From Omnitrophica WOR_2 bacterium GWF2_43_52 (lineage in GTDB: Bacteria > Omnitrophota > Gorgyraeia > Gygaellales > UBA12090), in the NCBI GenBank assembly GCA_001805445.1, contig MHGF01000003.1, positions 184,429 through 248,428 on the forward strand: 64,000 bases of DNA, written 5' to 3'. This document shows positions 1,245 through 58,932 of the stretch, piece after piece. The number at the start of each line of letters is the position of its first letter. The stretch's first letter is position 1. A program made the translations under genes and the position numbers. A model generated the notes under the pieces. It was not told where the DNA came from, ran no database searches, and saw nothing but the letters and a program-made list of their open reading frames with translations.

Positions 1245-1529
1245 ATGCTAAAATTTGTAATCTTAGTGTCGCTCTTATTATTGACCGCGGGCTGCGGCAG
1301 CGGCGGGAGTGGTTCAGGATTAGGCGCCTTGTTGAGCTTTATCTCATCAAGCCTCTCCGGAGGCTCGGGCAGTAGTAGTAGCAGTTCCTCATCAGGCGGC
1401 TCTTCAGGTTTTTTTTCTGACACAACAATTCACACCGTGCAGAACCCTGAACCCAGCAGCATGGCACTCTTAGCCACCGGCCTTGCCGGCTTTGCAATCG
1501 CGCAATTAAGAAAAAGAAAAAAAAGCTAG
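1245..1529 (+). CDS. Small Gly/Ser-rich PEP-CTERM protein with an N-terminal lipoprotein signal
   Basis: Lipobox LLTAGC after a hydrophobic N-terminus. The C-terminus is PEPSSMALLATGLAGFAIAQLRKRKKS, i.e. PEP motif + transmembrane helix + basic tail, the canonical PEP-CTERM sorting signal. The RBS gagg lies upstream. Confidence 0.55.
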   Translation: MLKFVILVSLLLLTAGCGSGGSGSGLGALLSFISSSLSGGSGSSSSSSSSGGSSGFFSDTTIHTVQNPEPSSMALLATGLAGFAIAQLRKRKKS

Positions 1530-29543: not shown

Positions 29544-29562
29544 TTCAACCTACGAGGTTGAA
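29544..29562. repeat. Single REP family A unit (TTCAACCTACGAGGTTGAA)
   Basis: Sits between the GT2 stop and the exosortase start. Confidence 0.55.
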
Positions 29563-29587: not shown

Positions 29588-30400
29588 ATGAAAAAGATAG
29601 ACATAGCTAAAATTAGCGTTGTATCCTTAGTAACGTTGGCTGCCTATATACCCACTTTTATGTGGATGATAGACAGATGGAATGAACGTGATTCCTACTA
29701 TAACCACGGTATGTTAGTCCCCTTCATCAGCGCGTTCATTGTCTGGTTAAATAGAAAGAAGCTCGCCACATTAGAAATTAAGCCTTCAGCGCTCGGATGG
29801 CTTCTTTTTGGTACGGGGATTATCATCCATACCATAAGCGCGCTCGTCAGGGTATACTTTAGCTCAGGATTTTCACTTTTATTAACGCTCTCAGGACTAG
29901 TGCTGTTATTCCTAGGCAAGAAATTTCTGAAAGAACTTTTATTTCCCATCACATTCCTTATTTCCATGATACCTCTGCCGCTGGTAGCCATTGCTAATAT
30001 TAGTTTCCGCTTAAAAATATTCGCCGCGCAACTATCTACCGCCATCCTTAACGGCATGGGAATTCCCGCCATGCGTGACGGCAGTGTGATAAAAACCATG
30101 CACTCTTATTTAATGGTAGAGGACCCATGCTCCGGGATACGCTCATTGATTGCCCTCATTTCACTGGGAGCACTCATGGCATACTTTAGCAATACCACGA
30201 AAATAAAGAAGGCAATACTCTTTTTATCATCTATCCCCATAGCGGTTGGCTCTAACATCATCAGGATAGTTGCCTTGGCATTGGCCAGCGAGATGTATGG
30301 CACAAAGCTTGCCACCGGTACATTTCATGACGTCATGGGGATCCTTGTCTTTGTCTTTGCCTTTTTAGGGCTATCATTAGTAGGAAAAACGCTTGAATAA
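29588..30400 (+). CDS. Exosortase (XrtA/EpsH-family transpeptidase)
   Basis: An approximately 8-transmembrane-helix protein with exosortase hallmarks: the N-terminal …MWMIDRWNERDSYYNHGMLVPFIS… block, and conserved Arg/His in later loops. It is adjacent to an EpsI gene and multiple PEP-CTERM substrate genes. Confidence 0.7.
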   Translation: MKKIDIAKISVVSLVTLAAYIPTFMWMIDRWNERDSYYNHGMLVPFISAFIVWLNRKKLATLEIKPSALGWLLFGTGIIIHTISALVRVYFSSGFSLLLTLSGLVLLFLGKKFLKELLFPITFLISMIPLPLVAIANISFRLKIFAAQLSTAILNGMGIPAMRDGSVIKTMHSYLMVEDPCSGIRSLIALISLGALMAYFSNTTKIKKAILFLSSIPIAVGSNIIRIVALALASEMYGTKLATGTFHDVMGILVFVFAFLGLSLVGKTLE

Positions 30401-30413
30401 CAGCCAAACCAAA

Positions 30414-30475
30414 ATCAACCGCGGAGGTTGCGGAAATTTGTCGTCGGGAAAAAAAATCAACCGCGGAGGTTGATT
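30414..30475. repeat. REP family A variant composite: ATCAACCGCGGAGGTTG - linker (AAATTTGTCGTCGGGA) - ATCAACCGCGGAGGTTGAT
   Basis: The arms are a variant of the unit, and the linker is the same as in the 27601 and 45486 copies. Confidence 0.6.
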
Positions 30476-30487
30476 TAGGGAGGGGAG

Positions 30488-31108
30488 ATGAATAATAAGA
30501 CTTTTTTTGTGGTGTTGGGGGTTTTGATTGTGGTGGCGGGGTTGGCGCTTATGGCGTACCTGCCGGCAAGGACGGATATTGCTTTAAGCACAAAAGTTAG
30601 CGATTTTCCTAAAGAAATAGGGGAATGGAAGGGAACTGATTTGCCTATAGAAGAGAATGTATATGAAATCCTGGAAACCAGGAACCTTTTCATCAGAGAT
30701 TATAAAAACGCGAAAGGGGAATCTGTCTATCTTTACATTGTGTATTCGGAAGATAACCGAAAAGTCAGCCATCCTCCGGAAGTCTGCTTCTTGGGAAGCG
30801 GGGCTACGGTCGTAGACAAATCATCACTTGAACTCACACCCACTATTACAGCAAGCAAACTACTGATAGAAGACGCGAAGACCCGTAGTATAGTGGCCTA
30901 TTGGTTTAAGGCAGGAAACTTAAATACAAACCAATATATTAAGCAGCAGCTTAAAACCGTCTTTGACAGAATAGCGGGGAAAAGAACATCATCAGCGCTT
31001 ATTAGACTGTCTACAGATATAAAAAATGACCTGCACAATGATGCCATCAGTCTCTTAAAATCGTTTGCCAGCCAAATTGAACCGCTCATAACCAACTACG
31101 TACCATAA
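30488..31108 (+). CDS. EpsI-family exosortase-associated protein
   Basis: An N-terminal signal-anchor is followed by the characteristic …VSHPPEVCFLGSGATV… (H-x-PE-x-C…G-x-G) motif of EpsI. Confidence 0.65.
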   Translation: MNNKTFFVVLGVLIVVAGLALMAYLPARTDIALSTKVSDFPKEIGEWKGTDLPIEENVYEILETRNLFIRDYKNAKGESVYLYIVYSEDNRKVSHPPEVCFLGSGATVVDKSSLELTPTITASKLLIEDAKTRSIVAYWFKAGNLNTNQYIKQQLKTVFDRIAGKRTSSALIRLSTDIKNDLHNDAISLLKSFASQIEPLITNYVP

Positions 31109-31387
31109 TCTTAGCCTCCAGGCGTAACTCCTGTTATTTTTCGCCACAACAGATGTTGCATTCCTACTATTAATGTTTAAATAAGTATAAATTCATAACT
31201 CTTTTATTTTAATGGTGTAAGAGATAAATCAGGAAAACGTTTTCATAAGATGTTGCTTTTCGTGAACAAAAGAAGGAAAATATCAAAAAAATCAAAGAAA
31301 CAAAATACGTGTCATATAGAAAATCTTCGTAACCTGTTGTATAGCATTATACTAATATTTAAAAAAAGTTGTTGAAAAGGCACTTCT

Positions 31388-31404
31388 TGGCATAGAAATT
31401 GCTA
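31388..31404 (+). promoter_or_regulatory. Sigma-54 (-24/-12) promoter TGGCAT-agaaa-TTGCT upstream of the sugar-transferase / PEP-CTERM operon
   Basis: Matches the consensus TGGCAC-N5-TTGCW in 9 of 10 specified positions. Lies about 90 nt upstream of ATG 31494 in an AT-rich 380-bp intergenic region. rpoN and an NtrC-family activator are encoded in the same window. Confidence 0.5.
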
Positions 31405-31493
31405 CATACAATATATAAGGTATAAAACCTCACATGCGAAAACTTTTTTAAAGCCTACATCAGCGCGAGGAAAAAAAAGAAAAAAACAACTCT

Positions 31494-32345
31494 ATGATAA
31501 GTAAAAAACTAAATATATCATTAGTATTACTCATTGCCGGCCTATGGCTTAGCTTATTTAGCGGCATAAATAACCTTAGCTTTGCGGTAAATTCATTAGG
31601 GGATAACAAGAATATTTACAAAACCATAAAAACTAATTACCCTGTAAGCTCACCATCAAGCGCTCCTGTCCAGCAAAAATCACACGCCCCAGAACCAAGC
31701 AGCCTGTTTCTTATCTTAAGCGGAACCGTAGGAATGATTGTCCGCTTCGCCAGAAGAAGCTTTGAAAAATTTAAAAGGATTATGGATCTCTTTCTTTCTA
31801 TAGCAGGGCTTACCCTGACCTCTCCTTTAGTAACACTCGCGGCAGTAATGATTAAGCTCACCTCAAAGGGCCCGGTTGTCTACAAGCAAAACCGTGTTGG
31901 CAAAAATGGCGAGATTTTCAAAATCTATAAACTCAGGACCATGTTTCTTGACGCGGAAAAAAACACCGGAGCAGTCTGGGCACAGGAAAATGACCCGCGC
32001 ATCACCCCTGTCGGGAGGATTTTAAGAAAAACCCATATAGATGAAATCCCCCAGCTCCTTAATGTCATTACCGGCGAGATGAGCATTGTCGGGCCGCGGC
32101 CTGAGCGGCCTGAAATTGTGAAAGACCTAAAAGCCCTCATCCATGATTATGAAAATCGCCTAAGTGTAAAACCGGGCATTACAGGGCTTGCTCAAGTCAA
32201 ACATAAATACGATGAGACCATAGAAGACGTAAAGAAAAAGATAAAGTACGACCTCCTCTATATAAGGAAAATGTGCTGGCTGGTAGAAATGCGCATTATA
32301 GCCCAGACTTTTATTGTCGCGCTCACAGGGAAGGGAGCACGGTAG
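31494..32345 (+). CDS. Polyprenyl-phosphate sugar-phosphotransferase (bacterial sugar transferase domain; initiating glycosyltransferase)
   Basis: …PVVYKQNRVGKNGEIFKIYKLRTM…NDPRITPVGRILRKTHIDEIPQLLNVITGEMSIVGPRPERPE… is the canonical Bac_transf C-terminal domain. Confidence 0.75.
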   Translation: MISKKLNISLVLLIAGLWLSLFSGINNLSFAVNSLGDNKNIYKTIKTNYPVSSPSSAPVQQKSHAPEPSSLFLILSGTVGMIVRFARRSFEKFKRIMDLFLSIAGLTLTSPLVTLAAVMIKLTSKGPVVYKQNRVGKNGEIFKIYKLRTMFLDAEKNTGAVWAQENDPRITPVGRILRKTHIDEIPQLLNVITGEMSIVGPRPERPEIVKDLKALIHDYENRLSVKPGITGLAQVKHKYDETIEDVKKKIKYDLLYIRKMCWLVEMRIIAQTFIVALTGKGAR

Positions 32346-33113
32346 ATGATGATAACCAAACTAACGGCAAAGATACTAGCAGTTTGCGCCTTCGCCTCCG
32401 TTGTATCGGCGCACCAGGCAGGCGCGGCAATGATTGTATTTCAAAATGGCTTAAACGGATATACCGGAACCCAGGATGCCTATATATCGTCTGCCGCGAG
32501 CCAACGGGAAAAGAATTACGGAACAGCCGACAGATTAATTCTTAGAGCCGGCTCAGTGCCAAAGAATATTCTGGTTTCTTTTGATATCAATTCTCTCCCT
32601 GATGATTTATGCATTGATTCAGCAACCTTATCTCTGTATAAATTACGGACAACCCCTGACCCCATAGGCTCAGTGTATAAAATACTCAGCGGGCCATGGT
32701 CTGAAGGGAATGGAGGAAACGCGACAGCAGGCGATGTGGACTGGAATCACAGGATTCACGGCGGCACAGCATGGAATACCCCTGGTTTAGGCGCCAACAC
32801 CGATTACGAATTGCCCGCGTCAGATTCTGAAAACTTAACCGTCAACGGATGGTATAGCTGGGATATATCTTCAATTTTTCAGGATTGGTACAATGGAATA
32901 GACCCTAATTATGGCCTAGTGTTAAAAGCCACTGGCAATAACGATACATTAGAGTTCGCGTCTTCTGAATACGGCTACTGCTATAAACGCCCCAAATTAA
33001 TTATCAACTATCACCAGGGTTGCGGAATAGTTCCAGAACCGGCATCATTAAGTTTATTAGGATTTAGTTTATTAGGATTGGCAAAAATTAGAAGATTTAG
33101 AAAAGTTAATTAA
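32346..33113 (+). CDS. Secreted PEP-CTERM protein (paralog 1)
   Basis: A signal peptide and a C-terminus …GIVPEPASLSLLGFSLLGLAKIRRFRKVN, i.e. PEP + transmembrane helix + basic tail. Confidence 0.6.
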   Translation: MMITKLTAKILAVCAFASVVSAHQAGAAMIVFQNGLNGYTGTQDAYISSAASQREKNYGTADRLILRAGSVPKNILVSFDINSLPDDLCIDSATLSLYKLRTTPDPIGSVYKILSGPWSEGNGGNATAGDVDWNHRIHGGTAWNTPGLGANTDYELPASDSENLTVNGWYSWDISSIFQDWYNGIDPNYGLVLKATGNNDTLEFASSEYGYCYKRPKLIINYHQGCGIVPEPASLSLLGFSLLGLAKIRRFRKVN

Positions 33114-33127
33114 AACTGGAGGCATAT

Positions 33128-33991
33128 ATGAAAAAGTATCTCAATATAATAATCGGCGTAGTCTTAATTGCCACACTTGCCCTTATTCCTACGCTAAAGG
33201 CTGAAGCTGTGATAGTTGACAGCGGAAGCATCAGCCTTATTGACTCTACCGATATTATGCCCTTTCCAGACCCTGCCCCTACCGGCTCAGGGCTTGGGAC
33301 ATTAGACCTTATAATGCTTTCTTTTTCAGCAGGAGGCGCAGGCAATAACCCTTCAGGGCCGTTAAACTTTGATAACGCCAATACTGGCCTGCCCACCGGT
33401 TCAACTACAACAGCTAATGAATCCTATATAACTTCCGTTGGAGAACTCAGGGATTTCTACGACCTCAATTTTGGCGTTGGCGCGGTTAATGAAATGGTTC
33501 TCTTCCTAAATATCAACGAAACAGGAGGAACTCAAGATATACTTCTAAGTAAACTTGATATTGTTATTGACTACACTAGCCCAACTACCGGGGGAAGAGA
33601 TAATCCAGCGGCTAATGATATAACTTCAGCGACACAGAACAGCACCAACGACGTATTTGACGGCGGCACCCGCATCGCGAAATTAGGTGCGGGAACGCCT
33701 TTCTCCGTGCTACAGATAAATACCGGTATAGGCGCTATTGACCAGTATATCCTAACAGGCATAGACCCTTTTGACCCCGCGTATTCAGATTCTACAAGGA
33801 TTCTATTTCACTGGGAAAGCTCTGTACATGATGCGGGGGGCGAAGTGGTTTTCTTGAGCGGGACCTTTCGTAAAGAAGACCTTCCTGGTGACGGCGGTGG
33901 CGGCGGCAATGGCGTTATTCCCGAACCAACCACCATGTCGCTTTTAGGCTTAGGGCTTTTAGGGTTGGCAAAGTTAAGAAAGAAAAGATAG
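33128..33991 (+). CDS. Secreted PEP-CTERM protein (paralog 2)
   Basis: Signal peptide and Gly-rich stretch, then …GGGGGNGVIPEPTTMSLLGLGLLGLAKLRKKR. Confidence 0.65.
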   Translation: MKKYLNIIIGVVLIATLALIPTLKAEAVIVDSGSISLIDSTDIMPFPDPAPTGSGLGTLDLIMLSFSAGGAGNNPSGPLNFDNANTGLPTGSTTTANESYITSVGELRDFYDLNFGVGAVNEMVLFLNINETGGTQDILLSKLDIVIDYTSPTTGGRDNPAANDITSATQNSTNDVFDGGTRIAKLGAGTPFSVLQINTGIGAIDQYILTGIDPFDPAYSDSTRILFHWESSVHDAGGEVVFLSGTFRKEDLPGDGGGGGNGVIPEPTTMSLLGLGLLGLAKLRKKR

Positions 33992-34120
33992 TAAACACCC
34001 AAGCTTGACGTTACAAATTTCCTAAAAATAACAGGAAAACGCGGCTTGCTATATATAACGTAATAATACCAACATTTAAAAGTAACTGCCCTTGCAGACT
34101 CAATCAAAAGGAGAAGCAAA

Positions 34121-34771
34121 ATGAAAAGACTCGCAGTGATAACAGCAATACTTTCTATTGCGCTAACGGTAAGCAATGCCTCTGCCAGCACATTGACAGG
34201 ATTTGGCGATCCTATTGATGCTGCCGCGCTTGCCGGCGGAACAGTTATCGATTTTGATAGTGGCCCAACAGGATCTTATTCTTCGCTTACGCTTCTTGGT
34301 GTAACCTTCAATGATTTGGATTACACATTCAGAATCAGTTCTGCTTACATCGGTTCTTACAATACGGAAGGCACATATTCTCTTCAGAACGGTGATTACG
34401 ATAGCACGATGACCCATCGCCTTCGTTTTGACTTTGCGTCTGCGGTTGATGCCTTTGGTTTTAATTGGGGAGCGTCTGACGATACCTGGCTGCTTAGTGC
34501 TTTTGATTCAAGCAATAATTTACTTGATAGCCTTTCTATCGCACCAACTCAGAGCAGTAACTCCGGTGATTATTTTGGCATTGCATCTTCTAACATTTCA
34601 TATGCCACCATTGTTAATCAGTCAGGAGATAATGGTGACTTTATTTTTCTTGATGATTTCACTTATAAGGGTCAAGGCGGCGGCGGTAACGGCGTCATCC
34701 CTGAACCGACTACCATGTCGCTCTTAGGCTTAGGGCTTTTGGGGTTAGCAAAGTTAAGAAGGAAAGGGTAG
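34121..34771 (+). CDS. Secreted PEP-CTERM protein (paralog 3)
   Basis: Signal peptide, then …GQGGGGNGVIPEPTTMSLLGLGLLGLAKLRRKG, a tail nearly identical to paralog 2. Confidence 0.65.
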   Translation: MKRLAVITAILSIALTVSNASASTLTGFGDPIDAAALAGGTVIDFDSGPTGSYSSLTLLGVTFNDLDYTFRISSAYIGSYNTEGTYSLQNGDYDSTMTHRLRFDFASAVDAFGFNWGASDDTWLLSAFDSSNNLLDSLSIAPTQSSNSGDYFGIASSNISYATIVNQSGDNGDFIFLDDFTYKGQGGGGNGVIPEPTTMSLLGLGLLGLAKLRRKG

Positions 34772-34928
34772 GAAGCACCCAAGCTTGACGTTACAAATTT
34801 CCTAGAAATAACGGGAAACGCGGCTTGTTACATATATAACGTAATACTACCAACATTAAAGAGCGATTATCCTTGCAGATTTAAATTGGTTGCGGGGAGA
34901 TTCAATCAAAAAGAGAGGAGAACCATAG

Positions 34929-35891
34929 ATGGTAAGAAAAGTAACACTTATAACCTTAGCGGCATTCGGACTGCTCATCGGCAGACTGCCTAATGCCCAC
35001 GCCGCTACCTTCGCGACCGGAGATATTTTTGCTTCGGTAGCCAGCGGTAATGTAAACTGGTATCGGGCTGATGGATCATTTGTCCAAACCCTTAATATCG
35101 GAGCAGGCGGCTTTACTACAGGTATGGCCTTTGATGCTGCCGGGAATCTTTATGTCACAGGGTTCTCTGTCGGCACAGTTGACAAATTTGATACCAGCGG
35201 AAACCCATTAGGGAATTTTGCCGCGGGGCTTCCTACACCGGAATCTATTGTGTTTGATAATTCCGGAAACGCGTATGTGGGAAATGTGGGTGGCAGTATT
35301 AGAAAATTTGATTCTGCCGGGAATCCTTTAGCTACCATTCTTGCCGGTACCAGGGTCGATTTTATGGATCTTATGGCAGACCAAACCACCATGCTTTATA
35401 CGCAGGAAGGCGGCCTAATTAAATCGGTCAATGTAGCCACGAACACCGGGCTGGCTGACTTTGCCTCAGGTTATGGCGGAAGCCAGGCATTCGCCCTGCG
35501 TGTCTTAGCTGATGGCGGGGTTCTCTTAGCCGACAGGGTAAATGTAAAAAGGTTTAACTCAGCAGGCACCCTTATCCAAAGCTATGATATCGGGGGAGAA
35601 GACAGCTGGTTTGCCCTTAACCTCAATCCGGATGGAAACTCTTTCTGGAGCGGAAATTATAGTACCGCGAATCTCTATGAATTTGACCTTGCATCCGGAG
35701 TCAATACCCAGATTCTCAATACCGGGACAGGTGGGAACACTTTGTACGGAGTGGGTATTTTCGGCGAGCAAACCCAGGGATGCCAAGATTGCGGTGGAAC
35801 AGATAATAATGTTATTCCCGAACCTACCACCATGTCGCTTTTAGGCTTAGGGCTTTTAGGGTTAGCAAAGTTAAGAAAAAAAGCCGCATAG
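34929..35891 (+). CDS. Secreted PEP-CTERM protein with NHL/beta-propeller-like repeats (paralog 4)
   Basis: Repeated …GNPLGNF… / …SGNAYVGNVGG… / …AGNPLATI… blades, followed by …NVIPEPTTMSLLGLGLLGLAKLRKKAA. Confidence 0.65.
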   Translation: MVRKVTLITLAAFGLLIGRLPNAHAATFATGDIFASVASGNVNWYRADGSFVQTLNIGAGGFTTGMAFDAAGNLYVTGFSVGTVDKFDTSGNPLGNFAAGLPTPESIVFDNSGNAYVGNVGGSIRKFDSAGNPLATILAGTRVDFMDLMADQTTMLYTQEGGLIKSVNVATNTGLADFASGYGGSQAFALRVLADGGVLLADRVNVKRFNSAGTLIQSYDIGGEDSWFALNLNPDGNSFWSGNYSTANLYEFDLASGVNTQILNTGTGGNTLYGVGIFGEQTQGCQDCGGTDNNVIPEPTTMSLLGLGLLGLAKLRKKAA

Positions 35892-35961
35892 TCATCGTCT
35901 TGTGACATGGTGACTTTGTGACTTGTGACTCTATAAGTTTTTTAAATCTACAGTAGAGGAG

Positions 35962-36765
35962 GTGAAAAACATAATGAAGAAAGTATTAATCGCGTTGTTT
36001 GTATTAGCATTAGCTGTTAGCGGTGCCACAAAAGCTCAAGCTATAAATATTCCCGCGGGTCCAATTACCTTTCACTGGACAAATTGGGAAACTAGAGTCG
36101 ACGAAGTAGATGATACCTTAGACGGTATCTTCAGACTTGACCAGATTCTCCAAGGTGTTAACGTTATCTGGAGTGCTGGTGGCGGCGAAGAGCTTACTGG
36201 AACCTTTCAAAACCTGACAGTAGATACTTTTGATGGAGAGAGTGTTGGTGATATCATAGGATTTTCAGGTGGTGACTTACAAGTATATTTAGACACCACC
36301 CCTGACTTTGATCCTACGTCTCCGGGAAGCGGGGTAACTGATGGTGACCTTTGGTTAGACATGGACTTTGTAACCGGAGGAGATTTCTTTAACCCTACGA
36401 ATACTCTCACTTCAATCGTAACCGGCGCAGGAGTTGATCCCGACGCAGTTCTTTCTATCAAAGGAACAGGTTCAGGGTTACTTGAGGTAGTTGGCGGTAG
36501 CGCGGCAGGTATCTTTGACACCAACACCTATGCCCGTCTTGATGGAAGCGGCTTGTTCGCTGATATGAGTTTGTCCGCAAACTTTTTTATCAGATATACA
36601 GGTACAGATCCATTTGATGTGACTGGGAATAGGAAAGATGGCTGGGATGTCTGGAGCAGTGACCCTATCGGGGCCAATGCAGTTCCTGAACCAACCTCAA
36701 TGCTGCTTTTTGGCATGGGAATGGCTGGTTTAGTAGCAAAGAAGTTAGCAAAGAAAAGAGCCTAA
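35962..36765 (+). CDS. Secreted PEP-CTERM protein (paralog 5)
   Basis: Signal peptide, then …AVPEPTSMLLFGMGMAGLVAKKLAKKRA. Confidence 0.6.
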   Translation: MKNIMKKVLIALFVLALAVSGATKAQAINIPAGPITFHWTNWETRVDEVDDTLDGIFRLDQILQGVNVIWSAGGGEELTGTFQNLTVDTFDGESVGDIIGFSGGDLQVYLDTTPDFDPTSPGSGVTDGDLWLDMDFVTGGDFFNPTNTLTSIVTGAGVDPDAVLSIKGTGSGLLEVVGGSAAGIFDTNTYARLDGSGLFADMSLSANFFIRYTGTDPFDVTGNRKDGWDVWSSDPIGANAVPEPTSMLLFGMGMAGLVAKKLAKKRA

Positions 36766-36786
36766 TTTACAGCATTAACGTAAATT

Positions 36787-36869
36787 AGCGCCTCTTTTTG
36801 AAAGAAAGAGCTCTTGATTAAAAAAAGAGGCGCTGAAACTTAGCAATAAGTGACAGCGCCTTTTTTTTT
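36787..36869. terminator. Bidirectional intrinsic terminator region between convergent genes, with three mutually complementary segments
   Basis: AGCGCCTCTTTTT (36787-36799) pairs with AAAAAGAGGCGCT (36822-36834). That segment can alternatively pair with CAGCGCCT (36854-36861), which is followed by a T9 run. A-tract and T-tract flank the stems on opposite strands. Confidence 0.5.
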
Positions 36870-36879
36870 ATTCTAGTGG

Positions 36880-38291: not shown

Positions 38292-38402
38292 GAGTTCAGC
38301 TTTTAGAAGCATTCTCTTTATAAGATTGCTTCTCCGCCTTCGGCGGATCGCAATGACACCGATACGAATTAACCGGTAGTCCTTAAAATCTAATTCCAGG
38401 AC

Positions 38403-52194: not shown

Positions 52195-53139
52195 ATGGAC
52201 TTAGCTGTCTTCAAAAAAGGTTTACTCGGAAAGGCCCTCAGCAAATCCCTCACTACCTTTAGGCAGTATCCATCCATTGTTATCCCGTTTCTGGCCTTTA
52301 CTATCATAGAGCTTATCGCGCTCATAGCCTTATACAACATTCCCCGCCAACCACTGGTGGGCATATTGGGCCCTCCGGTGCGGACATTCTGGGGAGAAAA
52401 ATTCCTCCATTATCCTTACAATTTCCTTATTCTGCCAAAGATATCCTACTATAGCAGAATAGTGCTATCCGTTTTTTTTGGCTCGCTTTTGATGGGAACA
52501 GCTATAGCGCTTATCGGGGCTTTCCATTATAAAAAACCAATCCGGCTCGGAAAGGCGCTTCAATTCGCTTTTCGCAAATACATACTGCTTTTCGCGGTTC
52601 TCCTGCTTCTGACGGCACTCTATTATTTCCTCGACAAATGCATTACCCTGGGACTGGTTAAATACTTTATAGCAGGGCACAAAAAGCTTCTCTTCCTCAA
52701 TGCAAAAGCATGGCTGGGCCCGATTTTACCTGTACTCACCTTTTTACTCGCGATATTACTTCAATCGCTTTTCGCGTATGCTTTACCGGCGGTAATAATC
52801 GGCAACGAAAAGCTCCTTTCGGCACTCTGGAAATCAGTAGTACTATGCAAGCGGCTGTTCATCACAACACTCATTATCGTAACGGTTACCCTGCTCTTGT
52901 TTGTGCCGATATTGACATTAATCTATAACTCGACATTCTTGATTAATAAACTTTTCCCGGAATTTATTCTTTACGTTCTGATCGCGGGAGTTATTGCCAA
53001 CTCCCTGATCATTGACCTCTGCCTGACGCTTTTTACTACCAACATCTATGTGCTCTACTCTGACGCCAACGATGGCACTCTCGCGCAAGAAACAGGAAAG
53101 GCATCCGGCGCGAAAAAAGAGAAAAAACATAAACCATAA
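52195..53139 (+). CDS. Polytopic membrane protein, unknown function
   Basis: 314 aa with about 6 hydrophobic helices and a Lys-rich C-terminus. No motif recognised. Confidence 0.35.
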   Translation: MDLAVFKKGLLGKALSKSLTTFRQYPSIVIPFLAFTIIELIALIALYNIPRQPLVGILGPPVRTFWGEKFLHYPYNFLILPKISYYSRIVLSVFFGSLLMGTAIALIGAFHYKKPIRLGKALQFAFRKYILLFAVLLLLTALYYFLDKCITLGLVKYFIAGHKKLLFLNAKAWLGPILPVLTFLLAILLQSLFAYALPAVIIGNEKLLSALWKSVVLCKRLFITTLIIVTVTLLLFVPILTLIYNSTFLINKLFPEFILYVLIAGVIANSLIIDLCLTLFTTNIYVLYSDANDGTLAQETGKASGAKKEKKHKP

Positions 53140-53984
53140 TGAAGACACTATTGAATATTATCCTTACGGTACTGGCCTCATGCGCTCTCATTTCGTGCAG
53201 CAATGACCAATACTCAGTAGAGAGGAAATACTATAATGCCCAAAAGCAGGCAGAAAAGATATTTAAAAATCCGCTCTCGAGCCCTCCGCAAGAACTGCAA
53301 AGAAGCGTCGATACCTTTGCCCGCTTTACTCAAGAATACCCCCAGACCAATTTAGCCCTGCAGGCTGAGTTCGTTATTGCCCGGCTTTACATGGCAAAAG
53401 AAGAATACGAGAAGGCAAGGGCGCACCTCAACACAATGATAAAAAATTACGCGAAATTCCCCGATGTCTGCTCAGAGGCATCCTTCTTAATCGCCTATTC
53501 CTACGAAGCCGCTGGCACATGGAACAAGGCGCTCGAACACTACAAAAAAACAATTCAGGATTATCCGACAACTCGCAAAAGCCTTGAAATACCCATCTAC
53601 ATCGCCCGCTACTACAAAGCAAAATTCCAGCCGGACAAGATGCTTTCTGCCTACCATGAGGCAGTATCTCACTATAGCGCGCTCGTAAAGAAATATCCTA
53701 ATTCGCTGCTTGCCCTCACCGCGCAAAATCTTACTGCCCGATGCCATCTGGCGGCAGGAGAATGGAACCAGGCGCTTGAGTCCTTTGATGCCATGCTCCA
53801 AAAATACAAGGGAACAAAAATCAGCATGGATGGCATCATGGTGCAGATGGCGCTTATCTATGTAAAGGAACTTCATGACACAAGTAAAGCTAAAGAACTA
53901 TTAGAAACCCTTATCAAGGACTATCCTAAAAGCCGATTAATAAGAATAGCCAATAAATTATTAGAAGAGGTAAGTAAAAAATGA
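53139..53984 (+). CDS. TPR-repeat lipoprotein
   Basis: Lipobox LASCALISC. Repeated 34-residue TPR-like units (…ARLYMAKEEYEKARAHL… / …AYSYEAAGTWNKALEHYKK… / …ARCHLAAGEWNQALESF…). Confidence 0.55.
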   Translation: MKTLLNIILTVLASCALISCSNDQYSVERKYYNAQKQAEKIFKNPLSSPPQELQRSVDTFARFTQEYPQTNLALQAEFVIARLYMAKEEYEKARAHLNTMIKNYAKFPDVCSEASFLIAYSYEAAGTWNKALEHYKKTIQDYPTTRKSLEIPIYIARYYKAKFQPDKMLSAYHEAVSHYSALVKKYPNSLLALTAQNLTARCHLAAGEWNQALESFDAMLQKYKGTKISMDGIMVQMALIYVKELHDTSKAKELLETLIKDYPKSRLIRIANKLLEEVSKK

Positions 53985-55189
53985 CCGGACATAAAATCTC
54001 CGAACTCCACACAGAAACATCAGCCACCCTAAAAGACTTCTTAAACAGCGCGCTTAAGGATATTATGGCTGTTACCCACGCGGAGTGCGGCTCCCTGTTT
54101 TTATTTGATTCAGAAAATAAAGAGCTTGTCATGAACTCGTTTTACAATACCAAAGAATTACCTCTTAAAGGGCTCAAGCACAGGATAGGGGAGGGGGTTT
54201 CCGGAAAAGTGGCAGGCATACAAAGCCCGGTTCTCGTCAAAGACATCGATACCGATATACGTTTCAGGCGTAATGGCTATACGCACTACCGCACAAAATC
54301 TTTCATTTCAGTGCCGATTTCCAACTCTCAAGAATTATTAGGGCTCATTAACTTAGCAGATAAAGCAAACGGAGAACCTTTTTCTAAGGATGACCTCAAC
54401 GCCGCGGTTGCGATAGCAAAATATGCCTGCCTAAGCCTTGATGCCTTACACAGCTATACCGAGTTAAAGAAAGAAACCGATGCCCTTCATACGCAAAGCG
54501 CCCATCTTGAAAAATATGCCTCCGTGGGAAAACTTGCCGGGGGCATTGTCCATGAAGTCAATAATCCGCTTGATGGAATTATTCGCTACACCAACATGCT
54601 CCTTAACCAGACCGATGACAACACTACCGCCAGAGGATACCTTCTGGAGATAAAAAAGGGCCTTGAAAGGATCGCGCACATTACCAAGAGCCTCCTTGAA
54701 TTTTCCCACCAAATTAATGCCAACGCCTCCTGTCAAAAAAGGTATATAGACATCGAGCACCTGATAAGGGAAACCCTGGATGTCATTCATGATGAGTCCT
54801 TAAAGAATATTAAAGTCATTAACCTAATCAAACACTCTTTGCCCAAGGTTATTGATTTCGGGTTATCTCATATAGTGATAAATATAATCCGTAACGCCAT
54901 TGACGCTATGGCCAGTGGAGGGGCGCTCAGCATTAGCGCCCAAACACATTACGCGGGCATCAATATTAGCTTTCAAGATACAGGCACAGGCTTAAGTGAT
55001 GAAGTCAAGAAAAGGATATTTGAGCCATTCTTTACTACCAAAAGTAGAGAGAAGGGAAGCGGGCTTGGCCTGGCAATTTGCAATGAGATTATCCAAAAGT
55101 ATGAAGGCACAATTGATGTAAAAAGCTCACCGGGACAAGGAAGCACTTTTACCATTTTTATCCCCCAAAAATATATCACGCATGCATAA
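53981..55189 (+). CDS. Cytoplasmic GAF-domain sensor histidine kinase (PrsK-like partner of the sigma-54 activator)
   Basis: An N-terminal GAF domain. H-box …HEVNNPLDGI…. HATPase_c N, G1 and G2 boxes (…NAIDAM…, …DTGTGL…, …GSGLGLAI…). The stop overlaps the start of the response-regulator gene. Confidence 0.65.
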   Translation: MTGHKISELHTETSATLKDFLNSALKDIMAVTHAECGSLFLFDSENKELVMNSFYNTKELPLKGLKHRIGEGVSGKVAGIQSPVLVKDIDTDIRFRRNGYTHYRTKSFISVPISNSQELLGLINLADKANGEPFSKDDLNAAVAIAKYACLSLDALHSYTELKKETDALHTQSAHLEKYASVGKLAGGIVHEVNNPLDGIIRYTNMLLNQTDDNTTARGYLLEIKKGLERIAHITKSLLEFSHQINANASCQKRYIDIEHLIRETLDVIHDESLKNIKVINLIKHSLPKVIDFGLSHIVINIIRNAIDAMASGGALSISAQTHYAGINISFQDTGTGLSDEVKKRIFEPFFTTKSREKGSGLGLAICNEIIQKYEGTIDVKSSPGQGSTFTIFIPQKYITHA

Positions 55190-56603
55190 CAAGCCGGTTC
55201 CTCATGGCAGGCATATCCTCATCGTTGATGACGAGCCGCTGGTGAGGCGTTCGTTAAGCGAATTCCTGACCCTCCAAGGCTACAGCGTCAGCTCTGCCGC
55301 AAACGGCAAGGAAGCCTTAGGATTGTTAACAACTTATACCGCGGATATCGTTATCACCGATATACGAATGCCGGAATTAGACGGCCTGCAATTGCTCAAG
55401 CACATCAAACAAGACTATCCGCATACCCCCGTTATCCTGATGACCGGCTACGGCAGCATAGAAAGCGCTGTCGCGGCAATCAAGGAAGGCGCCTATGATT
55501 ACGTAACCAAGCCTATTGTTGACAGCGAAATAAAGATAGTCATTGAACGCCTCGTTACCCAGCGCCAGCTCCAGGAAGAAAATATAAGGCTTAAGCAGCA
55601 ACTTTCGGTTGCTTCTGTAAGAGAACGGTTTCATCATATCGTCGGAAAAGACGAAAAGATGCAAAAGATTTATTCTCTTATTGAGGCAATAACCGGTACC
55701 AGGACAACCGTGCTCATTCATGGGGAAAGCGGCACCGGGAAACGTTTAATAGCCCATGCCATACACAAATACAACGAGCAGGAAAGAGGGAAACCTTTTA
55801 TTGAGGTAAGCTGCGGCGCGTTGACCGAAACACTCCTGGAGAGCGAACTTTTCGGCCACGCCAAAGGCTCCTTTACGGGAGCGATAAAAGACAGAATCGG
55901 CCGCTTTGAGCTGGCAAACGCGGGGACAATCTTTCTTGATGAAATAGACGCGTCATCGCCGGCGTTACAGGTAAAACTCTTGCGGGTACTCCAGGACGGT
56001 GAATTTGAGCGGGTAGGAGATGCCACTACTATCACTGTCGATGTCCGTGTCATTGTCGCGACCAACCAAAACCTCCAGGAATTAATAACGCAGGGGAAAT
56101 TCCGTAAAGACCTCTATTACCGCCTTAATATCATTTCTATCGATATCCCGCCTTTACGGGAACGCAAAGGCGATATTCCACTTTTGGTTGAAGAATTTAT
56201 CAAGAAACATTCTAAGCATACAAGCAAAAAAATAGACGGGATATCAGAAGAGGCCTTAGGCCTTTTGGCAAAATACGCGTGGCCGGGAAACGTCCGGGAA
56301 CTTGAAAATACCATAGAAAGGGCGGTCATCTTAAGTAAGGACCACATCATTCAACCCAGAGATCTGCCGAAATCTATTCACAGCCACATAGCAACGCAAG
56401 CAAAAGAATCTGCTGATAGCCTGGGATTAAAAGATGCCTTAAAATCCCCGGAAAAAGACTTGATTCTAAGAGCCTTGGACGCCACGGGCTGGAATAGAAA
56501 TGAAACAGCGCAAAACCTAGGGATTAACCGGACTACACTTTATAAAAAAATGCAAAAATACAGTTTGCTAAAACCGCGTAACTCCGATGCCGGAAGAACA
56601 TAA
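55182..56603 (+). CDS. Sigma-54-dependent transcriptional response regulator (NtrC family: receiver + AAA+ sigma54-interaction + Fis-type HTH)
   Basis: Receiver domain (ILIVDDEP…DIVITDIRMP). AAA+ domain with GESGTGK Walker A and a GAFTGA-like loop (GSFTGA). ESELFGH and the C-terminal HTH (…NRNETAQNLGINRTTLYKKM…) complete the family signature. Confidence 0.8.
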   Translation: MHNKPVPHGRHILIVDDEPLVRRSLSEFLTLQGYSVSSAANGKEALGLLTTYTADIVITDIRMPELDGLQLLKHIKQDYPHTPVILMTGYGSIESAVAAIKEGAYDYVTKPIVDSEIKIVIERLVTQRQLQEENIRLKQQLSVASVRERFHHIVGKDEKMQKIYSLIEAITGTRTTVLIHGESGTGKRLIAHAIHKYNEQERGKPFIEVSCGALTETLLESELFGHAKGSFTGAIKDRIGRFELANAGTIFLDEIDASSPALQVKLLRVLQDGEFERVGDATTITVDVRVIVATNQNLQELITQGKFRKDLYYRLNIISIDIPPLRERKGDIPLLVEEFIKKHSKHTSKKIDGISEEALGLLAKYAWPGNVRELENTIERAVILSKDHIIQPRDLPKSIHSHIATQAKESADSLGLKDALKSPEKDLILRALDATGWNRNETAQNLGINRTTLYKKMQKYSLLKPRNSDAGRT

Positions 56604-57612: not shown

Positions 57613-58932
57613 TTATTTGACCCGCCGAAAACCGGAAGAGAGAATTTTCAAGCCTTCCCGGTACTTAGCAACCGTCCTTCTTGAAACATCTATTTTTCTT
57701 TCTTTGAGAAGATAACGTGTTATTTCCTGATCACTCAAAGGGTGTTTTTTATCTTCCTGCTCAATGCATTCTTTAATGATGGATTTAATCTGGCCTGAAG
57801 AAAAAGATTCCCCGTCTTTACCGTTGATACGGCTGGTAAAGAAGTTTTTTAAGGCTATAACAGACCCCTCGGGTAATTCCACGTATTTATTCATCACTGC
57901 CCGGCAGACCGTGGTTTCATGAAGAGAAAGCCTTTTGGCTACTTCTTTAAAGGTAAGCGGCTTAAGGCTGGAAAAATCATTAAGCAAGGCCTCCTGCTGG
58001 ATATCCACCAAAACCTGCATGATTTTTAAGAGTGTTTCTTTTCTTTTAGAAACAGCCTGTACCAACTCAAGGGCGTAACGAAGTTTATCGCTTAAAAACT
58101 CCTTGGCCTCTTTATCATCACGGTGTTTCTTTAAAAGAGAGCGGTAAGATTCATTAATACGTATGCTAAAACTATCTTCATTATTGATGGTAACCTTGAT
58201 GCACTCGGCATCATGAGTAATAATAACGTCAGGAATCACTGCCTGCGGCTCTTCCTGGGAATAATTGCGGCCTGGTTTGGGGTCAAGCCGTACTATTTTT
58301 TTTATCGCTAATTCAACTTCATCAAGGGGTTGTTTAAGGCTCTTGGCGATATGGCTATAGTTTTTCCTTGCGACATCCTCAAGATGAAATTGAATAATCA
58401 TTTCTACCAAAGGCTCATTTTCTCCCAGTGATTTCTGCTGAATAAGCAGGCATTCTGAAATTGAGCGCGCGCCAATTCCGGCAGGCTCAAACTGCTGAAT
58501 AAGGCGAAGTACGCTTTCAACATTGGTTAAAGGCAGATTGACCGCGAGGGCTATTCTGTCCAGGGGAGTAGTCAAGTAACCGTTTTCATCCAAATTGCCA
58601 ATAATTTCCTGCCCAATAAGCAACGTCTGATCATCATCAGCAAACATACTCAATTGTCTCAAGAGCACATCCTGTAAAGAGATTTTCTGGGTAATTAAGC
58701 TCAAGCGGTAATTAGACTCCTCATTATGGTAACCTGCTTGAGCGCTGCGAAAACGTAGGTTCTTGTCCTGTGGCTTGGATAAAGGCCTAAATTCCTCAAG
58801 AAAGGGATTTGCATCCAATTCCTGCTGAATAGCAGTAATCAGGTCTGCCTGGGGTAAGGTTAATATCTGCAGCGATTGCTGAAGGCGGGGAAGTAAATAT
58901 GTCCTTAATTCTGGGCGTTGTCTGATTTCCAT
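57613..58932 (-). CDS. rpoN: RNA polymerase sigma-54 factor
   Basis: The C-terminal RpoN box …DVSRRTVAKYREGLKIL…, an upstream HTH, and a Gln/Leu-rich N-terminal region I. Confidence 0.8.
   Translation of the reverse strand: MEIRQRPELRTYLLPRLQQSLQILTLPQADLITAIQQELDANPFLEEFRPLSKPQDKNLRFRSAQAGYHNEESNYRLSLITQKISLQDVLLRQLSMFADDDQTLLIGQEIIGNLDENGYLTTPLDRIALAVNLPLTNVESVLRLIQQFEPAGIGARSISECLLIQQKSLGENEPLVEMIIQFHLEDVARKNYSHIAKSLKQPLDEVELAIKKIVRLDPKPGRNYSQEEPQAVIPDVIITHDAECIKVTINNEDSFSIRINESYRSLLKKHRDDKEAKEFLSDKLRYALELVQAVSKRKETLLKIMQVLVDIQQEALLNDFSSLKPLTFKEVAKRLSLHETTVCRAVMNKYVELPEGSVIALKNFFTSRINGKDGESFSSGQIKSIIKECIEQEDKKHPLSDQEITRYLLKERKIDVSRRTVAKYREGLKILSSGFRRVK

What the first reader, a model, noticed from the sequence alone, without database searches (positions are those of the whole stretch)
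31388..36765. Sigma-54-driven exosortase substrate array: five PEP-CTERM paralogs with near-identical sorting tails and duplicated upstream modules
A strong -24/-12 promoter (TGGCATagaaaTTGCT, 31388-31404) precedes the initiating sugar transferase and five consecutive secreted PEP-CTERM proteins. Paralogs 2-4 end in an essentially identical 30-aa tag (GGGGNGVIPEPTTMSLLGLGLLGLAKLRKK) although their passenger domains are unrelated (lectin-like, Gly-rich, NHL propeller). The ~90-bp region downstream of paralog 2 (33992-34085) is repeated almost verbatim downstream of paralog 3 (34772-34865), and both copies start with CAAGCTTGACGTTACAAATTTCCT. This looks like a cassette system in which tag + intergenic module are copied as a unit, by gene conversion or duplication, onto different cargo domains. 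Together with rpoN (57613-58932), the NtrC-family regulator (55182-56603) and the GAF kinase, the control circuit is encoded in the same window.
Basis: seen in the sequence. Interest (0 to 1): 0.55.

Follow-up and report, generated by a model that had tools for sequence, protein, structure and literature searches.

The report
Sigma-54 operon of swappable exosortase cargo
This is an ordinary-in-kind but well-preserved surface-protein sorting locus of an uncultured Omnitrophota bacterium: one sigma-54 promoter drives a sugar-priming enzyme plus five secreted proteins whose near-identical sorting tails (and one adjacent spacer) have been copied between unrelated genes by recombination.

Summary
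A -24/-12 element (31388-31403) precedes a sugar transferase and five PEP-CTERM genes, and a strong terminator closes the unit at about 36820-36870. The repeat is real but not verbatim: tail plus spacer, 33896-34098 against 34676-34879, is 85% identical over 205 nt. The P4 tail is a third copy (96% over 74 nt) without the spacer.

The sigma-54 reading is supported by comparison. Eight Omnitrophota loci carry the same element with fixed GG-N10-GC spacing, seven of them before the orthologous transferase.

The "cassette system" reading is only partly supported:
- Cargo domains are unrelated.
- Paralogous tails are more alike than the P4 tail is to its own orthologue.
- Array content differs between relatives (3 to 8 genes).
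- A 97%-identical strain has different DNA upstream of P3.
- The spacer module has only two copies, both in this species, and is absent upstream of the P4 orthologue.
- It shows no promoter, RNA-family or significant folding signal, and is no more conserved than ordinary spacers.

I read it as a recombination footprint. The regulator in the window fails the PrsR and PrsK cut-offs.

A side finding may be more novel: the transferase carries a family-wide conserved PEP-CTERM-like segment ahead of its catalytic domain.

The parts
29588..30400 (+). Exosortase (EpsH family, XrtA-like but below the XrtA cut-off)
   Evidence: TIGR02602 167.7 bits (cut-off 105.55). TIGR03109 XrtA 186.7 bits (cut-off 208). 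PF09721 217.6 bits.
30488..31108 (+). EpsI, exosortase-associated protein
   Evidence: TIGR02914 107.2 bits (cut-off 42.8); PF11984.
31251..31268 (+). Candidate activator-binding dyad TGTTGCTTTTCGTGAACA (TGTT-N10-AACA), about 120 nt upstream of the -24 element
   Evidence: It is the only such dyad in the 64 kb. The same dyad sits at a comparable distance in L023, L025, L026 and L009, with partial matches in L027 and L015. A second GATGTTGC copy lies about 100 nt further upstream. Function is inferred.
31360..31373 (+). Conserved A-tract TAAAAAAAGTTGTT about 14 nt upstream of the -24 element
   Evidence: Invariant AAAAAAGT block in the four-locus alignment. Also present in L023, L026 and L027.
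31388..31403 (+). Sigma-54 type -24/-12 promoter element TGGCATAGAAATTGCT
   Evidence: TGGYAY-N5-NTGCT with fixed GG-N10-GC spacing is present upstream of the orthologous transferase in L009, L015, L023, L025, L026 and L027, and upstream of the first PEP-CTERM gene in L018.
31494..32345 (+). Small (PglC-like) phosphoglycosyl transferase with a 92-aa N-terminal extension
   Evidence: PF02397 222 bits covering aa 94-277. Residues 93-278 align to PglC chain 8e37_B residues 10-186.
31686..31757 (+). PEP-CTERM-like segment inside the transferase (aa 65-88, APEPSSLFLILSGTVGMIVRFARR)
   Evidence: Pfam PEP-CTERM 16.9 bits, below the cut-off of 20.7. The motif APEP..L.L.L.G..G..vRFArkSF.kFKR is conserved in 109 of 120 family representatives, at the level of catalytic motifs. 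A lineage-specific tail HMM gives up to 24.8 bits for family members but only 6.7 bits for the window protein.
32346..33113 (+). P1: DNRLRE/CBM96 carbohydrate-binding PEP-CTERM protein
   Evidence: NF033679 82.3 bits; PF24517; TIGR02595 21.1 bits.
33128..33991 (+). P2: PEP-CTERM protein, cargo of unknown family
   Evidence: TIGR02595 23.1 bits. No cargo similarity to the other paralogues.
33896..34098 (+). Repeat copy 1: Gly-linker plus P2 tail plus the spacer downstream of P2
   Evidence: 85.4% identity over 205 nt to 34676-34879. A 29-nt perfect block CACCCAAGCTTGACGTTACAAATTTCCTA is shared.
34121..34771 (+). P3: Npun_F0296-family PEP-CTERM surface protein
   Evidence: NF050191 23.7 bits (below its cut-off of 29) and a UniRef name among homologues. 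Homologues elsewhere are 54-59% identical in the cargo and carry different tails.
34676..34879 (+). Repeat copy 2: Gly-linker plus P3 tail plus the spacer downstream of P3
   Evidence: It is present at 156 of 157 spacer positions in strain L024.
34929..35891 (+). P4: NHL/beta-propeller-like PEP-CTERM protein, a core member of the array
   Evidence: Weak SGL/NHL-type hits plus the PEP-CTERM domain. An orthologue exists in L023 with 73% aa identity in the cargo.
35811..35883 (+). Third tail copy (P4), without the spacer module
   Evidence: 95.9% identity over 74 nt to the P2 tail; pS = 0.17, pN = 0.
35974..36765 (+). P5: PEP-CTERM protein with its own, cargo-linked tail type; a core member of the array
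   Evidence: TIGR02595 20.2 bits. Related to L015_7669 at 31% identity. A positional counterpart exists in L023 (29% cargo identity), and genes of similar length occupy that position in two contigs for which no DNA was available.
36820..36870 (+). Intrinsic terminator closing the operon
   Evidence: A GC stem followed by T9. Fold of 36766-36880 is -38.6 kcal/mol, z = -5.5, with 0 of 200 shuffles folding as well. The site is conserved in L023.
53139..56603 (+). TPR protein, GAF histidine kinase and sigma-54 activator (REC-AAA-HTH_8). A candidate regulator whose link to the operon is untested
   Evidence: PrsR model 406.8 bits (cut-off 502.6); PrsK model 82.7 bits (cut-off 300).
57613..58932 (-). 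rpoN (sigma-54)
   Evidence: TIGR02395 381 bits (cut-off 277).
1245..1529 (+). Sixth, small PEP-CTERM ORF: lipoprotein-like and Gly/Ser-rich
   Evidence: PF07589 25.8 bits. Found. Similar small NPEP-type genes sit inside the arrays of L009, L012, L015 and L026.

Best explanation
The region is the substrate operon of a PEP-CTERM/exosortase system in an Omnitrophota bacterium (Omnitrophica WOR_2 GWF2_43_52-like MAG).

**The operon.** Directly downstream of xrt-epsI in a large exopolysaccharide locus, one sigma-54 promoter lies upstream of the operon and, inferred, transcribes six genes. The promoter has a -24/-12 element at 31388-31403, an A-tract at 31360 and a candidate activator dyad at 31251. 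The six genes are a PglC-like priming sugar transferase and five signal-peptide proteins with PEP-CTERM tails. The unit ends at a strong terminator at about 36870.

**What varies.** The promoter-transferase-array layout is conserved across the lineage. The cargo set is not: P4 and P5 are core, while P1 to P3 come and go.

**Where the repeat comes from.** The near-identical tails are kept alike within the genome by purifying selection on the peptide plus recombination or gene conversion between tail-coding DNA. There were at least two events with different tract ends:
- an older one joined P2 and P3 (tail plus spacer, 205 nt, 85% identity);
- a younger one joined P2 and P4 (74 nt, 96% identity).

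The 'intergenic module' is most likely the footprint of the first event. It is the spacer that travelled with the tail when P3 (or P2) was inserted or duplicated. It is not a dedicated cassette site or a regulatory element.

**Shown:** sequence features, their conservation, and the divergence statistics. **Inferred:** sigma-54 dependence, co-transcription, sorting by the exosortase, and the recombination mechanism.
For: **Family assignments and source**
- Family hits for exosortase, EpsI, transferase and tails.
- Source genome and reproducibility across assemblies.

**Promoter**
- It is the only strong intergenic -24/-12 site in the window.
- It is conserved in eight Omnitrophota loci whose spacers are otherwise largely unalignable, seven of them upstream of the orthologous transferase. 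GG-N10-GC spacing is fixed and the A-tract is shared.
- The TGTT-N10-AACA dyad occurs once in the window, at the expected upstream-activator distance.

**Operon end**
- Terminator z = -5.5. No terminator-like hairpin lies in the internal spacers.

**Synteny and variable arrays**
- GT2-xrt-epsI-transferase followed by 3 to 8 PEP-CTERM genes.

**Recombination**
- Cargo domains are unrelated by BLASTP.
- Paralogue tails: pN 0-0.02, pS 0.17-0.44. The P4 orthologue pair: tail pN 0.19, cargo pS 0.64.
- P2/P4 and P2/P3 homology tracts end at different places.
- Strain L024 is 97% identical from 34095 onward but unrelated upstream. It also shows mosaic divergence: P3 pS 0.13, adjacent spacer 1 of 157 mismatches, P4 pS 0.03.
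- Tail-only DNA repeats of 77-96% identity recur in arrays of relatives.
Against: - No transcript data exist, so sigma-54 dependence and co-transcription are inferred.
- The spacers of 129 and 157 nt are long enough to hold internal promoters of a type the consensus scans do not cover.
- The spacer copies differ less (13.5%) than third codon positions of the adjacent tails (38%, Fisher p = 0.006). Taken alone this would suggest constraint. However, ordinary spacers between this genome and L025 show the same pattern: 17% against pS 0.35-0.39.
- Small site numbers make the pS values imprecise.
- The search for further module copies needed an exact 20-mer and covered only JGI metagenomes.
- The rest of this genome could not be scanned. 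The species is not in the genome collection searched.
- The P2 orthology of the 287-aa gene in the P0198 contig rests on length only, because no DNA was available.
Confidence: 0.7

Rival explanations
1. The duplicated spacer module is a functional cis element kept by selection in front of P3 and P4. It could be an internal promoter, a regulator binding site, or an RNA processing or stability hairpin that sets the relative amounts of the cargo proteins.
For: - A 29-nt perfect block sits right after both stop codons, and both copies predict the same hairpin (CAAGCU...GGCUUG enclosing UUCCU/GGGAA).
- Spacer divergence (13.5%) is lower than third-codon divergence in the adjacent tails, p = 0.006.
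- L015 also has a repeated, terminator-like spacer element flanking a PEP-CTERM gene.
Against: - No sigma-70-like site is centred on the module and there is no sigma-54 site.
- Fold z-scores are only -1.9 and -0.3.
- There is no Rfam match even at E up to 1.
- The module is absent upstream of the P4 orthologue in L023 and upstream of P3 in the 97%-identical strain L024.
- The spacer-to-synonymous divergence ratio is typical of ordinary spacers in this lineage.
- Only two copies were found.
Confidence: 0.15
2. The five genes descend from one ancestral PEP-CTERM gene by plain tandem duplication. The cargo parts diverged beyond recognition while the tails and spacers were simply conserved, with no recombination.
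For: - Tandem, same-strand arrangement.
- All have a signal peptide plus tail architecture.
- The tail peptide is under strong purifying selection (pN 0-0.03).
Against: - The cargo domains belong to different families (CBM96/DNRLRE, Npun_F0296, NHL-like) and give no BLASTP hit to each other.
- Synonymous sites of P2/P4 tails are far from saturated (pS 0.17), while orthologous genes of the nearest sequenced relative are at pS 0.64-0.74.
- The P4 tail matches its paralogues rather than its orthologue.
- Homology has sharp, differing boundaries.
- P3 homologues in other phyla keep the cargo but carry different tails.
Confidence: 0.07
3. A dedicated cassette-shuffling system, integron-like or transposase-driven, moves 'cargo plus tag plus module' units, using the module as its recombination site.
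For: - The repeat flanks the P3 cargo as direct repeats.
- Array content varies between strains and species.
- A Y1 (RAYT-like) transposase gene lies 3 kb upstream, at 27662-28351.
Against: - The transposase is flanked by its own, different palindromes (TTCAACCTCGTAGGTTGAA), which do not occur in the array.
- The module occurs at only two of five gene boundaries and in no other place found.
- Relatives with variable arrays have no such module.
- Tail DNA of 74-205 nt at 85-96% identity is enough for ordinary homologous recombination (established knowledge of RecA-dependent recombination).
Confidence: 0.05
4. The TTGGCA...TATATAAG region is a sigma-70 promoter (-35 TTGGCA, -10 TATA box) and not a sigma-54 promoter.
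For: TTGGCA matches TTGACA at 5 of 6 positions, and a TATA-rich box follows in all loci.
Against: By my count on the sequences printed, the distance from TTGGCA to the TATA box varies from about 12 to 23 nt among the eight loci. The GG-N10-GC spacing and the TGCT at -12 are invariant in the same sequences. rpoN is present.
Confidence: 0.08

Closest known systems
PEP-CTERM/exosortase (EpsH/XrtA) protein-sorting system with EpsI, embedded in an exopolysaccharide locus (Haft et al. 2006, PMC1569441)
   Same: - Exosortase, EpsI, glycosyltransferases, deacetylases and a priming sugar transferase sit in one locus.
- Several signal-peptide proteins end in PEP, a hydrophobic helix and a basic cluster.
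- Tails are much more alike within a genome than between genomes.
- Cargo is mostly without known domains.
   Different: - The exosortase falls just below the XrtA cut-off (186.7 against 208 bits).
- The substrates are not single-gene operons with long upstream regions. They form a tandem array co-oriented with, and apparently co-transcribed with, the priming transferase.
- The transferase is a small PglC-type enzyme with a PEP-CTERM-like N-terminal extension, not the roughly 440-aa TIGR03013 type.
- The host is Omnitrophota.
PrsK/PrsR/PrsT sigma-54 regulation of PEP-CTERM genes in Proteobacteria (Haft 2006). A 2023 paper title also reports an RpoN-dependent PEP-CTERM floc gene in Aquincola (PMC9850573, title and abstract listing only)
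   Same: - A -24/-12 promoter precedes exosortase substrates.
- A TPR protein, histidine kinase and NtrC-type activator lie in tandem in the same large locus, with rpoN nearby.
   Different: - The activator and the kinase fail the PrsR and PrsK equivalog cut-offs, and the kinase is a soluble GAF type.
- Haft's motif 1 (ending in TTTACA) is absent. The candidate upstream site is a TGTT-N10-AACA dyad.
- One promoter serves a six-gene operon instead of one promoter per PEP-CTERM gene.
- Haft reported the DNA motif only in Proteobacteria.
Concerted evolution or gene conversion of short conserved ends in surface-protein gene families. Examples from general knowledge, not tested here: shared signal and anchor regions of variable surface-protein paralogues, and sortase-substrate LPXTG tails
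   Same: A short, functionally constrained sorting module stays homogeneous within a genome while the attached domains differ. Homology tracts have sharp, variable ends.
   Different: Here the tract once included the downstream spacer. No programmed switching or silent-cassette archive is evident.

Membership tests
PEP-CTERM/exosortase system | An exosortase (EpsH family, TIGR02602/PF09721) is encoded | tested here: met
   29588-30400: TIGR02602 167.7 bits (cut-off 105.55); PF09721 217.6 bits.
PEP-CTERM/exosortase system | The exosortase is of subtype XrtA (TIGR03109 at or above 208 bits) | tested here: not met
   186.7 bits. XrtA is the best-scoring subtype but falls below its cut-off. All other named subtypes score lower and are also below their cut-offs.
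PEP-CTERM/exosortase system | Several proteins carry a C-terminal PEP-CTERM domain (TIGR02595 at or above 16 bits) | tested here: met
   P1 to P5 score 20.2-23.1 bits. The sixth, small ORF at 1245-1529 scores 25.8 bits on PF07589.
PEP-CTERM/exosortase system | EpsI and exopolysaccharide biosynthesis genes lie next to the exosortase | tested here: met
   EpsI TIGR02914 107.2 bits. GT2, GT4, deacetylase, O-antigen-ligase-like and sugar transferase genes are present.
PEP-CTERM/exosortase system | The tails are cleaved and the proteins sorted by the exosortase | not testable with these tools
   This needs proteomics or genetics in an uncultured organism.
PrsK/PrsR sigma-54 regulon of PEP-CTERM genes | A PrsR equivalog is present (TIGR02915 at or above 502.6 bits) | tested here: not met
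   55182-56603 scores 406.8 bits. The AtoC model scores higher (497 bits, also below its own cut-off).
PrsK/PrsR sigma-54 regulon of PEP-CTERM genes | A PrsK equivalog is present (TIGR02916 at or above 300 bits) | tested here: not met
   53981-55189 scores 82.7 bits. Its architecture is GAF-HisKA-HATPase.
PrsK/PrsR sigma-54 regulon of PEP-CTERM genes | A -24(GG)/-12(GC) motif lies upstream of PEP-CTERM genes | tested here: met
   It is present at 31388-31403 and conserved in seven further loci. It occurs once per operon, not once per gene.
PrsK/PrsR sigma-54 regulon of PEP-CTERM genes | The 17-nt motif 1 ending in TTTACA lies about 63 nt upstream of the -24/-12 motif | tested here: not met
   There is no TTTACA or TGTAAA in 31109-31493 or in any spacer of the array.
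Integron-like or site-specific cassette array | A dedicated recombinase and a recombination site at every cassette boundary | tested here: not met
   The module is at 2 of 5 boundaries and no other copy was found. The only transposase-like gene has unrelated palindromes of its own.
Structured RNA or known cis-regulatory RNA family (for the spacer module) | An Rfam match, or a fold more stable than shuffled sequence | tested here: not met
   No Rfam hit at gathering threshold or at E up to 1. Fold z-scores are -1.9 and -0.3.
PEP-CTERM domain (for the segment inside the sugar transferase) | The domain model scores above its cut-off and the domain lies at the C-terminus | tested here: not met
   PF07589 16.9 bits (cut-off 20.7); no TIGR02595 hit. 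The segment is internal, at aa 65-88 of 283. It is PEP-CTERM-like only. A lineage tail HMM gives 6.7 bits here and up to 24.8 bits in family members.

The most novel reading that the evidence does not exclude
The exosortase may recognise not only the cargo tails but also the PEP-CTERM-like helix that is conserved family-wide between a signal peptide and the catalytic domain of the operon's priming sugar transferase. That helix reads APEPS.LFLILSG..G.IVRFARKSF. It could dock the transferase to the exosortase, or be cleaved by it. Either way, synthesis of the lipid-linked sugar would be coupled physically to protein sorting. The transferase's product would then be a candidate for the long-sought acceptor onto which exosortase transfers PEP-CTERM proteins. 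In the same picture, the homogenised tail DNA acts as portable homology that lets strains swap cargo genes in and out of the array.
Probability: 0.2. Interest if true: 0.75.

Novelty: new variant of a known kind. Interest (0 to 1): 0.4.

Why it matters
Exosortase systems are widespread in environmental bacteria, yet their acceptor molecule, their regulation outside Proteobacteria and the evolution of their substrates remain poorly understood.

This locus, together with its relatives, gives three things:
- a clean, lineage-wide example of sigma-54 promoter architecture in front of exosortase substrates in Omnitrophota;
- DNA-level evidence that sorting tails are homogenised, and cargo genes exchanged, by recombination within a conserved operon frame;
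- a testable lead: a priming sugar transferase with an embedded PEP-CTERM-like signal, which may link polysaccharide priming with protein sorting.

The specific item flagged, the duplicated spacer module, is most likely a by-product of recombination and of low interest on its own.

Tried and rejected
**Searches that gave little**
- A protein search with the tail alone failed: first too short, then no shared words.
- A phmmer search of the 40-aa tail against 1.84 billion representatives returned no near-identical tail (best 79% identity). Cluster representatives carry other tails, so this could not count the cargo genes that share this tail.
- A tail-based scan of one genome per species found only diverged tails (50-87%). 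The species itself was not in that collection, so genome-wide copy number could not be measured.
- An exact 20-mer of the module in JGI metagenomes gave the same species plus one unrelated chance hit, L021.

**Readings tested and rejected**
- The module as a sigma-54 promoter. GG to GC spacing is 11-12 nt in my reading of the sequence, and one search finds no qualifying GG-N10-GC site there.
- The module as a sigma-70 or ECF promoter. Hexamers are poor and spacing is inconsistent between the copies (by inspection).
- The module as a terminator. No T-run follows the hairpin.
- The module as a REP element. The window's REP family has a different sequence.
- The module as coding sequence. There is no + strand ORF, and the antisense ORF 33808-34191 has no counterpart over copy 2.
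- 'TGGCGCAGGTTTGGCA' sites in L009 and L012 as promoters. They lie inside the transferase coding sequence, in the conserved PGITGLAQV motif.
- Spacer constraint inferred. It was withdrawn after calibration against ordinary spacers.

**Data limits**
- The 250-bp 'insertion' in L006 adjoins a run of N and is probably a scaffolding artefact.
- The contigs of P0198 and P0199 gave gene tables but no DNA.

Full report
**What is there**

The window comes from an Omnitrophota MAG: GCA_003499645.1, contig DNSN01000042.1. The identical transferase is named from Omnitrophica WOR_2 bacterium GWF2_43_52. Bases 12-31 kb hold exopolysaccharide genes: GT4 and GT2 glycosyltransferases, deacetylases, an O-antigen-ligase-like gene and a large PcRGLX/GH-like protein.

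These are followed by:
- an exosortase at 29588-30400. The general exosortase model passes. XrtA is the best subtype at 186.7 bits, below its cut-off of 208;
- EpsI at 30488-31108;
- a 385-nt spacer;
- a PglC-like sugar transferase at 31494-32345;
- five proteins with a signal peptide and a PEP-CTERM tail, all on the + strand with spacers of 0, 14, 129, 157 and 82 nt;
- a strong intrinsic terminator at about 36820-36870 (z = -5.5).

A sixth, small PEP-CTERM ORF lies at 1245-1529.

**Checking the observation**

TGGCATAGAAATTGCT is at 31388-31403. It is the only strong -24/-12 site in an intergenic position in the 64 kb, and the internal spacers have none.

The repeat is genuine but is a single unit that starts in the Gly-linker. 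It covers the tail and runs on through the spacer: 33896-34098 against 34676-34879, 85.4% identity over 205 nt. A further matching block lies at the ribosome-binding site. P4 carries a third copy of the tail only (35811-35883, 96% to P2), and its downstream spacer is unrelated. The arrangement recurs in at least six independent assemblies.

**The sigma-54 promoter**

I fetched related loci through the tail and through the transferase. I then found the same element upstream of the orthologous transferase in L009, L015, L023, L025, L026 and L027, and upstream of the first PEP-CTERM gene in L018.

The shared features are:
- TGGYAY-N5-NTGCT with invariant GG-N10-GC spacing;
- a shared TAAAAAAAGTTTT tract about 14 nt upstream;
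- a TATA(T/A)AAG box downstream, at a variable distance.

The variable distance to the TATA box argues against a sigma-70 reading.

A TGTT-N10-AACA dyad occurs once in the window. It sits about 120-140 nt upstream of the -24 element in five loci, with partial matches in two more. That is where an enhancer-binding protein would be expected to bind.

rpoN and a TPR, GAF-kinase and NtrC-type activator cluster are in the window. However, the activator and kinase fail the PrsR and PrsK cut-offs, and Haft's TTTACA motif is absent.

The sigma-54 link to PEP-CTERM genes is already known for Proteobacteria (PMC1569441). A 2023 title also reports an RpoN-dependent PEP-CTERM gene in a betaproteobacterium. 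What is new here is the lineage and the operon layout.

**The tails and the module**

- **Cargo.** The cargo domains are unrelated to each other. P3 homologues elsewhere keep the cargo at 54-59% identity but have other tails.
- **Paralogous tails.** Within the window, P2 and P4 tails differ at 3 of 72 nt (pS 0.17, pN 0). P3 differs from both at pS 0.44, pN 0.02.
- **Orthologous P4.** The P4 orthologue in the nearest sequenced relative, L023, has 73% identical cargo with pS 0.64. Its tail differs at pN 0.19.
- **Conclusion on tails.** The P4 tail has been homogenised with its paralogues since that split. The different tract ends show at least two separate events.

**Array content differs between relatives**

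| Genome or contig | Genes after the transferase |
|---|---|
| This genome | CBM96, P2, P3, NHL (P4), P5 |
| P0199 contig (no DNA) | CBM96, NHL-like, a 263-aa gene the length of P5 |
| P0198 contig (no DNA) | a 287-aa gene the length of P2, NHL-like, a 264-aa gene the length of P5 |
| L023 | DUF8239, NHL, a gene at the P5 position |
| Others | 4 to 8 unrelated genes |

A strain 97% identical from 34095 onward has unrelated DNA upstream of P3. Its divergence is mosaic: P3 pS 0.13, the next spacer 1 of 157 mismatches, P4 pS 0.03.

**Is the module functional?**

It gave no promoter consensus, no Rfam hit and weak fold statistics. Only two copies exist, both in this species. It is absent upstream of the P4 orthologue in L023.

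Its lower divergence compared with third codon positions at first looked like constraint. However, ordinary spacers between this genome and L025 show the same ratio: 17% against pS 0.35-0.39. The two tail-plus-spacer copies are about as diverged as orthologous DNA of two neighbouring lineages. I therefore read the module as the spacer that travelled with a tail in one recombination or insertion event.

- The sigma-54 operon is supported.
- Copying of the tag is supported.
- 'Tag plus module as the unit of a cassette system' is not supported.
- The regulatory circuit is untested.

**Side finding**

The transferase core (aa 93-278) aligns to PglC. Ahead of it lie a signal peptide, a 35-aa linker and the segment APEPSSLFLILSGTVGMIVRFARRSF.

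The motif is present in 109 of 120 family representatives; the rest have APEA, APEL or APEF. It is as conserved as the catalytic motifs. It falls below the PEP-CTERM cut-offs. A tail HMM built from 45 Omnitrophota tails gives up to 24.8 bits for family members, but only 6.7 bits for this one. I found no paper describing it.

A physical or proteolytic link between exosortase and the priming transferase is a speculative but testable idea.

**Limits**

- There are no expression data.
- pS values rest on 18-22 sites.
- The module search needed exact matches.
- The rest of this genome could not be scanned.
- Two informative relatives had gene tables but no DNA.

Noticed in passing
window 31494-31770 (aa 1-92 of the sugar transferase); also L015 3177-4022 and proteins P0193-P0312: The PglC-like priming transferase has an N-terminal extension: a signal peptide, a short linker, and a PEP-CTERM-like helix with a basic cluster (APEPS.LFLILSG..G.IVRFARKSF). 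The extension is conserved in 109 of 120 Omnitrophota family representatives. No family model describes it, and I found no paper that does.
   Followed up: partly
window 15848-15888, 21571-21611, 27592-27666, 28359-28399, 29521-29561, 30405-30479, 45484-45559: A REP-like palindrome family (TTCAACCTCGTAGGTTGAA, with a GTAG core) is scattered through spacers of the polysaccharide locus. Copies flank a Y1/RAYT-like transposase ORF at 27662-28351 (57.5 bits against a cut-off of 80). One pair sits between xrt and epsI. At that position, L026 and the P0198 contig carry a 23S_rRNA_IVP-family gene instead.
   Followed up: no
window 20845-20916, 22964-23009, 26899-26936 and, inverted, 35900-35935: Runs of an 8-nt periodic repeat (GTCACNAN) occur inside the long ORFs 20282-23596 and 26702-27613. 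The inverted form (TTGTGACTTGTGACT) occurs in the P4-P5 spacer. Their meaning is unknown; they may be domain linkers or a second repeat family.
   Followed up: no
window 30298-30313: A second good -24/-12 match (TGGCACAAAGCTTGCC) lies inside the 3' end of the exosortase gene, 190 nt before epsI. It could be an internal promoter or a chance match.
   Followed up: no
L024 1-149 against window 33946-34094: A strain 97% identical across P3-P4 has unrelated AT-rich DNA upstream of P3. The breakpoint is at the 3' end of module copy 1. P3 itself is about four times more diverged than the adjacent spacer and P4, which indicates population-level recombination in the array.
   Followed up: partly
L015 7794-7863 and 8569-8637: Another Omnitrophota array has its own repeated spacer element flanking a PEP-CTERM gene. 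It is a long-loop hairpin (TTAAGCCTA...TAGGCTTAA followed by a T-run), 96% identical between the two copies and unrelated in sequence to the module studied here.
   Followed up: partly
proteins P0121-P0130: The best matches to the tail in the 1.84-billion-protein library are very long predicted proteins (up to 2500 aa) with 4 to 10 internal PEP-CTERM-like stretches. They may be arrays read through as one ORF, for example under a recoded stop codon or a gene-calling error.
   Followed up: no
window 1245-1529; L009 about 4025-4333, L012 about 5192-5485, L015 4824-5129, L026 9398-9652: A small (84-101 aa) lipoprotein-like, Gly/Ser-rich protein recurs in these loci. Its distinct tail has N directly before PEP (NPEP.S.LL..GLLG...), and most copies sit inside the cargo arrays.
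   Followed up: no
window 37458-44209; L023 7260-11866: Downstream of the array, a FeeM-type N-acyl amino acid synthase, an AMP-binding ligase, a B12-binding radical SAM protein and an ABC ATPase are syntenic in relatives (L023; by gene table in the P0198 and, lacking FeeM, P0199 contigs). They may be part of the same surface-modification locus.
   Followed up: no
L006 1937-2190: The anammox-reactor assembly has a run of N followed by about 240 nt of foreign sequence inside P2. This is probably a scaffolding artefact rather than an insertion.
   Followed up: partly
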